A DNA stretch of 64,000 bases from Malacoraja senta (lineage: Eukaryota), in assembly GCA_038087875.1 (NCBI GenBank), contig CM075990.1, positions 10,418,001-10,482,000 of the forward strand, written 5' to 3'. Positions 34,831 to 35,258 of the stretch are shown here, in pieces. Each line of letters starts with the position of its first letter. Position 1 is the first letter of the stretch. The notes below the pieces were generated by a model. The model was given only the letters and a program-made list of their open reading frames with translations, made no database searches and had not been told where the DNA came from. The position numbers and the translations under genes were made by a program.

Positions 34831-35258
34831 CCTTAGGCCCCCTTCGGACATGGCTGACCATGGGTGTCTCCAGGGTGCTATTCCCTATATGGAGGACGCC
34901 TGTGCGTGACTTTGTTTAACGCGGGGAGACTGGTGCACAGACAGCCACCCCACGGTCCTTGACAGATCTGGGTCAGGATCCAGTGGCATGGAGTCCAAGA
35001 CGCCCGGAGACCCTTTTCTGCTGCAGCCTTCATCCGCCTTCCCAGCCGTTGTGACGCTCCACTAAGGTCAGCCATCCTCCTCCGCCTGTTCCACCGTTGA
35101 GGCCTTGGTTGGATTGCTCTTTGTTTGAGACCTCCACCTAGACCTTACCGCCCTGGGTGGCCCTACCAGGAGCATAGCTCCAGACGGCATCACTCTCAGG
35201 ATCTCAGGACCATACAAGCTTCTCCACCACGACAAGGTGACAATCCACGGAGAAGTGA
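34831..35258 (-). mobile_element. Short non-autonomous RTE-like retroelement
   Basis: GC-rich insert in CR1; 5' end caccttgtcgtggtggagaagcttg...ggtagggccaccca resembles RTE-clade 5' UTRs (recognition, not a database hit). Confidence 0.7.
35111..35255 (-). ncRNA. HDV-like ribozyme fold with long P4 (predicted)
   Basis: P1 CUUCUCC/GGAGAAG, P2 GGAUUG(UC)/(GAG)CAAUCC, P3 ACC/GGU, L3 UUGUCGU, J4/2 CAAA. Confidence 0.65.

What the first reader, a model, noticed from the sequence alone, without database searches (positions are those of the whole stretch)
34831..35258. Second, unrelated short retroelement headed by an HDV-like fold with long P4
Seen (minus): CUUCUCC-GU-GGAUUGUC-ACC-UUGUCGU-GGU-GGAGAAG-CU...~95 nt...CAAA-GAGCAAUCC. 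P1 is 35249-55 / 35219-25, P2 is 35239-46 / 35111-19, and the putative catalytic C is 35123. The L3/J1.1 pair is G-C here versus C-G in the 23559 ribozyme, a compensatory swap. The fold starts within a few nt of the element's 5' junction with the host CR1. Established: RTE-clade elements carry 5' HDV-like ribozymes. Inference: an internally deleted RTE derivative, so two independent ribozyme-headed non-autonomous families lie within 12 kb.
Basis: partly seen in the sequence, partly recalled or inferred. Interest (0 to 1): 0.7.

Follow-up and report, generated by a model that had tools for sequence, protein, structure and literature searches.

The report
Ribozyme-headed short RTE retrotransposon family
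This is one copy of an abundant 424-base repeat that matches the front end of RTE retrotransposons and starts exactly at a predicted self-cleaving (HDV-like) RNA fold, which likely cuts it out of host transcripts so that RTE proteins can copy it; this kind of element is known, and this family was not found in the papers searched.

Summary
The minus-strand HDV-like fold is there (P1 35255-49/35225-19, P2, P3, single G-C P1.1, putative catalytic C35123). A descriptor finds 2 sites in the window and 0 in 300 shuffles. Public contigs show a very high-copy family whose ends pile up at 35255, the first base of P1, and at 34832. The same head occurs in 29 aligned metagenome relatives, one of them on an intact endonuclease+RT element. 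P2, P1.1 and a multi-helix P4 covary among them. The 5' ~390 nt is colinear with Repbase RTE-3_Crp and RTE-3_LCh and with the in-frame leader of a hake RTE-type endonuclease. C at position 1 is the family norm (23 of 25) and occurs in the active L1Tc ribozyme, so it is not a defect. Verdict: a new member of a known kind, a short non-autonomous RTE derivative with an HDV-like head. Cleavage is untested, and the origin of the 3' 30-40 nt is not verified.

The parts
34832..35255 (-). Whole non-autonomous element, 424 nt
   Evidence: Loose ends of run X1 pile at 35255 (93 contigs, flank agreement 0.36) and 34832 (113 contigs, 0.37); summed depth about 2-2.7e5 over most of it against 8 in the flank bin
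35111..35255 (-). Predicted HDV-like ribozyme (RTE-type head)
   Evidence: covariation on alignment A2
35249..35255 (-). P1 5' strand; C1 at 35255 is the predicted first base after cleavage and the observed family 5' end
35239..35246 (-). P2 5' strand
   Evidence: 8 of 8 pairs show changes on both sides
35226..35238 (-). P3 (3 bp) and L3; G35233 pairs with C35218 (P1.1)
   Evidence: P3 was fixed by my search pattern, so it gives no covariation
35219..35225 (-). P1 3' strand
35124..35217 (-). Multi-helix P4 domain shared by RTE heads
   Evidence: Helices 4-9 are 69-95% paired with many two-sided changes; helices drawn by eye from the same alignment; RNAalifold alone recovered little
35111..35123 (-). 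J4/2 with putative catalytic C35123, and P2 3' strand (A35118 bulged)
34861..35110 (-). RTE 5' UTR / ORF-leader segment; ends at the inferred deletion junction near 34860-34890
   Evidence: 63% over 65 aa to P0015 residues 7-71; colinear with RTE-3_Crp 153-348 and RTE-3_LCh 159-366; relatives diverge here
34832..34860 (-). 3' terminal segment, presumed RTE 3' end followed by a short AAG-like tail; parent not verified
   Evidence: Weak likeness to the L030 tail (6 of 500 shuffles, best of 4 comparisons); by-eye likeness to the RTE-3_AMi 3' end
35256..35265 (-). Likely left copy of a decayed 10-bp target-site duplication
34821..34830 (-). Right copy of the target-site duplication, where the host CR1 resumes
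34584..34830 (-). Host CR1-type LINE 3' part (a further ~22 nt of it lie at 35268-35289)
   Evidence: 87% to 25453-25699; alignment; the CR1 label is recalled from the RT C-terminal translation
23475..23612 (-). Separate 138-nt element with a minimal G1-type HDV-like fold, a perfect 11-bp duplication and a GAA tail (for comparison only)

Best explanation
This is one slightly decayed copy of a high-copy, 424-nt non-coding repeat family that matches the 5' end of RTE retrotransposons and likely arose from one by internal deletion; its 5' HDV-like fold is predicted to self-cleave at 35255 and so release a unit-length RNA that RTE proteins would copy in trans. Shown: family ends, high abundance, RTE homology of the 5' ~390 nt, and covariation of P2, P1.1 and P4 among relatives. 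Inferred: the element has no Pol III head, so it is likely co-transcribed by Pol II inside host transcripts. The ribozyme (C35123 as general acid, by analogy with HDV C75) would cut just 5' of C1. The stable fold would protect the 5'-OH end. The RTE ORF2 protein would bind the 3' end and its AAG-like tail, nick the target and reverse transcribe, giving full-length copies that start at C1 with a ~10-bp target duplication, here inside an older CR1.
For: The family 5' end equals P1 nucleotide 1 with heterogeneous flanks, and depth is roughly even from 5' to 3', so the copies are not 5'-truncated LINE stubs. The same head precedes an intact 1064-aa endonuclease+RT ORF in L056 and an endonuclease ORF in L076. 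On 30 heads, 86.1% of cells are paired against 74.4% shuffled, 26 of 37 pairs change on both sides, 0 of 500 shuffles reach this, and slid controls are at most 47% paired. The middle segment is 37 of 54 aa identical (E 5e-21) to the in-frame leader of a hake RTE-type endonuclease gene model. The Kojima 2018 supplement prints RTE-3_Crp 24-155, which I counted by hand at about 108 of 132 identical to 35235-35104; six of the family-majority alleles move this copy towards it. There is no tRNA and no exact B-box in the element. C1-G pairing occurs in the active L1Tc ribozyme (PMC3185411, PMC4035085). None of the listed majority differences falls in P1, P2, P3, L3 or J4/2 (24 rows not shown).
Against: There are no cleavage data. 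A review calls G1 invariant in active HDV-like ribozymes (PMC8495972), so C1 may lower the rate. MFE folding gives an alternative structure. RNAalifold did not recover P4 unaided, and I drew the P4 helices from the alignment they were scored on. P3, most of the P1 3' strand and its terminal G were fixed by my search pattern. No autonomous parent from the host lineage was found, and the 3' 30-40 nt were not matched significantly. A precise 5' end could also come from an internal promoter.
Confidence: 0.8

Rival explanations
1. The origin is the same, but the precise 5' end comes from an internal Pol II promoter in the head (as Pr77 does in L1Tc), and the fold cleaves weakly or not at all and serves mainly as a protective or protein-binding structure.
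For: Pr77 is both promoter and ribozyme, and its start coincides with the cleavage site (PMC3185411). G1 is called invariant in a review. The horse SINE2-1_EC keeps the P4 region while its L3/P3 letters are changed (supplement passage), which suggests a use for P4 apart from cleavage.
Against: The candidate catalytic C with its CNAA context, the L3 letters and the P1.1 pair are kept across the aligned heads, which a promoter would not require. Part of L3 was fixed by my pattern, but the C, P2 and P1.1 were not.
Confidence: 0.1
2. The family ribozyme works, but this copy is dead because its 11 or more substitutions, mostly in P4, favour misfolding.
For: This copy differs from the family majority at 11 listed sites, 7 of them within 35125-35213. 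The MFE structure lacks P1.
Against: All core pairs are intact. No G lies at -1 to extend P1 and break P1.1, which is the inhibition described for L1Tc. P4 is known to be tolerant (R2 paper section 16).
Confidence: 0.25
3. The element is a chimera: an RTE 5' part joined to a 3' end from another LINE (tail exchange), so it is mobilised by a non-RTE partner such as the abundant CR1.
For: The 3' end was not matched to an RTE parent. Tail exchange is common in SINEs (PMC5786205). CR1-type LINEs dominate the window.
Against: There is no blastn match of the 3' end to the CR1 3' ends in the window. A ~10-bp duplication and a short AAG-like tail fit RTE (recalled). The end resembles that of L030, another short element with the same head (weak).
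Confidence: 0.07

Closest known systems
Bipartite non-autonomous RTE elements (RTE-N1/N2_Lch, RTESINE1/2, WALLSI3, MAR4_MD, Bov-A; Kojima 2018, PMC5786205)
   Same: Keeps the RTE 5' end and a short 3' part, has no protein-coding capacity and no tRNA head; several known examples also keep only about 40 nt of 3' end
   Different: A different host lineage and family; none of the passages read describes this family; its 3' parent is unverified
Autonomous RTE-3_Crp, RTE-1_Crp, RTE-7_PM, RTE-3_LCh, RTE-2_Croc (Repbase stretches printed in the Kojima 2018 supplement)
   Same: Colinear 5' UTR at nearly the same coordinates; head about 82% identical to RTE-3_Crp by hand count
   Different: These are 3-4 kb elements with an ORF; the passages seen do not describe the ribozyme
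L1TcRz of L1Tc/NARTc and the SIDER ribozymes (PMC3185411, PMC4035085)
   Same: HDV-like fold at +1 of both autonomous and deleted elements; C1 paired with G; single-pair P1.1; cleavage shown in vitro at +1
   Different: Ingi clade in trypanosomes, 77 nt with a short P4; here the RTE clade, 145 nt, with a multi-helix P4 and a bulged P2
R2 SIDE elements (Eickbush and Eickbush 2012, seen only as cited in PMC6765202) and RTE ribozymes of Ruminski et al. 2011 (not readable here; cited second-hand)
   Same: A ribozyme-released non-autonomous or RTE retroelement
   Different: R2 is rDNA-specific; whether Ruminski et al. already show this RTE head could not be checked
IdioSINE2 body and horse SINE2-1_EC
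   Same: They contain the same RTE UTR segments (middle segment and P4 region respectively)
   Different: They are tRNA-headed Pol III SINEs; in SINE2-1_EC the L3/P3 letters are altered

Membership tests
HDV-like ribozyme | Nested double pseudoknot P1, P2, P3, P1.1, P4 | tested here: met
   covariation (P2 8 of 8 pairs, P1.1 G-C/A-U)
HDV-like ribozyme | Catalytic C in J4/2 followed by NAA, and L3 with U...CG(U/C) | tested here: met
   C35123 CAAA; column kept in 90% or more of A2; L3 partly fixed by the search pattern
HDV-like ribozyme | G1 at the cleavage site (canonical HDV/CPEB3 consensus) | tested here: not met
   C1-G in this copy and in 23 of 25 heads with 6 or more P1 pairs. Not a requirement for the wider family: active L1Tc-clade ribozymes have C1. 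It is filed with that C1 subtype, not with the canonical G1 type
HDV-like ribozyme | Self-cleavage 5' of P1 | not testable with these tools
   Indirect only: the family 5' end equals P1 nucleotide 1
Rfam HDV, CPEB3 or HDV-like families | Score at or above the gathering threshold | tested here: not met
Non-autonomous RTE derivative (bipartite) | 5' part homologous to an RTE 5' end | tested here: met
Non-autonomous RTE derivative (bipartite) | 3' part homologous to the 3' end of an RTE | tested here: inconclusive
   only weak or by-eye likeness; no parent at hand
Non-autonomous RTE derivative (bipartite) | Multicopy family of fixed length without ORF2 | tested here: met
Non-autonomous RTE derivative (bipartite) | Target-site duplication and short-repeat tail | tested here: inconclusive
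   Decayed 10-bp duplication (7-8 of 10); tail of only about one AAG-like unit
Pol III SINE | tRNA, 5S or 7SL head with A/B boxes | tested here: not met
   No tRNA; no exact B-box in the element; the head is the RTE 5' end

The most novel reading that the evidence does not exclude
RTE heads form a distinct, animal-wide subclass of HDV-like ribozymes (C1-G pair, single P1.1, bulged P2, conserved five-helix P4 domain) that Rfam lacks and that G1-based searches miss. The P4 domain is a second working module, for example an ORF2p-binding or end-protecting element, kept even when a tRNA head replaces cleavage. That would explain why RTE, more than most LINE clades, keeps spawning successful internally deleted families such as this one.
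Probability: 0.3. Interest if true: 0.6.

Novelty: new member of a known kind. Interest (0 to 1): 0.33.

Why it matters
As it stands this is a well-supported example of a known design: a ribozyme-headed, internally deleted LINE derivative. It appears to be very abundant in a group of related animals (8 coded organisms hold two thirds of its words). Its value is as a test case. The natural 5' ends of about 90 contigs fall exactly on the predicted cleavage site. The aligned heads give a covariation-supported model of an RTE ribozyme that Rfam lacks. Kojima 2018 left open why only RTE, Ingi/Vingi and R2 make such derivatives. RTE 5' UTRs are also used in RNA-templated gene-insertion platforms (PMC13708176), where a minimal, naturally successful template is informative.

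Tried and rejected
No genome is held for this window, and the window has no second copy. Rfam gave nothing relevant. DNA patterns from the middle segment found nothing in genome contigs and only chance matches or nothing in viral contigs. The head pattern gave 1 viral locus, L163, which I did not examine. Plasmids gave no match. The first protein search with the 58-aa frame found nothing. Searches gave mostly short spurious ORFs from related DNA; P0012 and P0013 look like chance. RNAalifold on the P4 columns gave almost no structure. An alternative catalytic C at 35199 gives only a weak 6-bp P2, rich in G-U pairs, and was rejected by eye because relatives do not keep that pairing. An 8-bp P1 with a G upstream was rejected: nucleotide -1 is G in only 3 of 30 rows, and the loose-end consensus at 35255 shows no such G. 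RNA evidence: X15 is probably DNA, and X16 (RNA is a guess) covers only part of the element at low depth, with no cover at 35181-35264. This says nothing about expression or cleavage. An automatic search for target duplications across 71 heads passed only 3, of which only L030 is convincing. No earlier scan findings were returned. Ruminski et al. 2011 could not be read.

Full report
Observation. On the minus strand, P1 is 35255-35249 with 35225-35219 (7 Watson-Crick pairs, the first being C-G). P2 is 35246-35239 with 35119-35111 (8 pairs, one U-G, A35118 bulged). P3 has 3 pairs closing a 7-nt L3, P1.1 is G35233-C35218, and C35123 is followed by AAA. A relaxed HDV descriptor finds 2 sites in the 64 kb, this one and the one starting at 23612, and 0 sites in 300 dinucleotide shuffles. 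I wrote the descriptor knowing both sites. Plain folding is not exceptional (z -0.45), but P1, P2 and P3 each have pair probabilities of 0.4-0.56 in the ensemble. Rfam has no matching family.

The family. The window has no other copy and no genome is held. Of 23 public runs listed, 20 hold the stretch or part of it, and 14 runs from 8 coded organisms hold 0.66-0.71 of its words. I laid 4 of the 23 runs. Summed depth over most of the element is about 2-2.7e5 in X1 and 5-8e5 in X2, against 8 and 26 in the unique flank bin. The tool warns that this is not a copy number, but it shows a very abundant repeat. Depth is about even from the 5' to the 3' end, with dips at 35118-35159 and 34845-34907. 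In X1 the loose ends pile up at 35255 (93 contigs, flank agreement 0.36) and at 34832 (113 contigs, 0.37). The family is therefore 424 nt long and starts at the first base of P1. This copy differs from the majority at 11 listed sites, plus one at about 50%, and none is in the core; 24 rows were not shown. It sits in a CR1-type LINE (label recalled). The 10 bases left of C1 match the 10 bases where the CR1 resumes at 7 of 10 positions, and at 8 of 10 with the letter read in X1 and X2, whose contigs cover the left junction and differ from the window at a few flank sites. This is likely a decayed target duplication at an insertion shared by more than one sample. That the host is a cartilaginous fish is my recall from its repeat content; no call shows it.

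Relatives of the head. A 24-letter pattern built on P3, L3 and P1' returned 84 metagenome loci (about 230 estimated). I set aside 13 by eye as chance bacterial matches. Of the other 71, 35 passed length and redundancy filters. I dropped 6 more (L001, L041, L048, L053, L075, L077: tandem, truncated or divergent) and aligned 29 with the window. That the source DNA comes from termites, corals and fish is my reading of record names and content, not a tool result. With a structure written by hand, 86.1% of cells pair against 74.4% in shuffles, 26 of 37 pairs change on both sides, 0 of 500 shuffles reach any measure, and slid controls pair at 47% or less. All 8 P2 pairs change on both sides. P1.1 is G-C in 19 rows, A-U in 10 and G-U in 1. 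Five P4 helices are 69-89% paired. Caveats: the rows are related; P3 and most of P1' were fixed by the pattern; the P4 helices were drawn from this same alignment; and RNAalifold alone recovered little of P4. With P1 fitted row by row, 25 of 30 rows have at least 6 of 7 pairs, and the first pair is C-G in 23 and U-G in 2 (the G was fixed by the pattern). L056 carries this head 127 nt before an intact 1064-aa endonuclease+RT frame, and L076 carries it before an endonuclease frame. L030 is a separate 363-nt non-coding element with the same head and a 13-bp duplication.

Origin of the rest. A translation of 35061-34888 found 12 proteins, about 10 of them evidently read from related DNA. A profile built from some of them and the query (A3) found P0015, a hake gene model named craniofacial development protein 2. 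In it the segment is 37 of 54 residues identical (E 5e-21) and lies in frame about 40 codons before an APE endonuclease; the match runs to 34861. The supplement of Kojima 2018 (PMC5786205; passages seen) prints Repbase stretches. RTE-3_Crp 24-155 is about 108 of 132 identical to 35235-35104 by my hand count, and six family-majority alleles agree with it. RTE-3_Crp 153-348, RTE-3_LCh 159-366 and RTE-2_Croc 259-486 match the middle segment by eye. Relatives leave the element near 34860-34890, which is the inferred deletion junction. The last 30-40 nt were not tied to a parent: the best of 4 tail comparisons reached 6 of 500 shuffles (L030), and there is only by-eye likeness to the RTE-3_AMi end. 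There is no tRNA head and no exact B-box.

Mechanism. Shown: fixed ends, abundance, RTE homology, conserved pairing. Inferred: read-through Pol II transcription, self-cleavage just 5' of C1 with C35123 as catalytic base, and target-primed reverse transcription by an RTE ORF2 protein in trans (confidence 0.8). A review does list G1 as invariant (PMC8495972, passages). Against this, the L1Tc ribozyme cleaves at +1, its primers show C at +1, and the text names G37 and C38 (PMC3185411, passages and section 12). A C1-A mismatch lowers activity in a SIDER ribozyme (PMC4035085, passages). Together with the family-wide C1-G, C1 is best read as a subtype feature. Rivals are a promoter-defined 5' end with a weak ribozyme (0.1), a dead copy of a working family (0.25, compatible with the main reading), and a chimeric 3' end (0.07).

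The 23612 element. It is 138 nt long, starts exactly at G1, has a perfect 11-bp duplication, a minimal P4 and a GAA tail. It shares only core motifs with the present element (no blastn hit), so two independent ribozyme-headed families do lie within 12 kb.

Known versus new. Bipartite non-autonomous RTEs are common, and RTE 5' ribozymes are predicted in the literature (PMC5786205 passages and section 23; PMC7245038 passages, whose supplement held none of my four terms; PMC6765202 and PMC7761336 passages; PMC3774820 passages and section 16; PMC13708176 passages). Ruminski et al. 2011 was not held and may already show this head; Repbase and Dfam could not be searched and may hold the family. Eight literature searches returned no paper on this family in their listings. 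The verdict is a new member of a known kind, interest 0.33. The bolder reading, an animal-wide C1-type RTE ribozyme subclass whose P4 domain is a second functional module, has probability 0.3 and would merit 0.6.

Noticed in passing
window 23475-23612 (-): A 138-nt element starting exactly at G1 of a minimal (about 55 nt) HDV-like fold with a CPEB3-like L3 (likeness recalled), a perfect 11-bp target duplication (23464-74 / 23613-23) and a GAA tail; its parent is unknown and it may be the more unusual of the two elements
   Followed up: partly
L030 (minus strand, 363 nt from P1 start): An independent short non-coding element with the same RTE head, a 13-bp duplication and a similar 3' end; L009, L021, L029, L049, L075 and L081 also look like short non-autonomous forms by eye
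   Followed up: partly
PMC5786205 supplement, SINE2-1_EC 98-226: The horse tRNA-headed SINE keeps the P4 region and the CNAA stretch of this head while L3/P3 letters are changed, as expected if cleavage is selected against behind a Pol III head
   Followed up: no
window 34890-35110; IdioSINE2 155-362: The cephalopod IdioSINE2 body keeps the same RTE UTR segment and ends at nearly the same point as the inferred deletion junction here, hinting at a functional boundary
   Followed up: no
window 35104-35235 versus RTE-3_Crp: About 82% identity (hand count) of a non-coding head between this host and a crocodile element; strong constraint or horizontal transfer, not tested
   Followed up: no
window 35266-35289: The host CR1 keeps only about 22 nt left of the insertion, with a 10-nt tandem duplication next to the target duplication; runs X1 and X2 read CR1-like letters at three of the flank sites where the window differs
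   Followed up: partly
window 50062-50860 (+): By eye an old RTE-like ORF2 C-terminal remnant; no Pfam hit and no tblastn hit with L056 or P0015, so unconfirmed
   Followed up: partly
window 41530-43047 (+): A 505-aa open CR1-type RT frame whose 3' 521 nt are 98.5% identical to an inverted copy at 28935-29455: a young LINE family
   Followed up: no
L001 (two matches 158 nt apart): A tandem duplication of the whole ribozyme head
   Followed up: no
X1 record 4 and X2 record 29: Contigs in two runs stop matching at 35102 with long unmatched parts, possibly a sister family with a diverged or missing head
   Followed up: no
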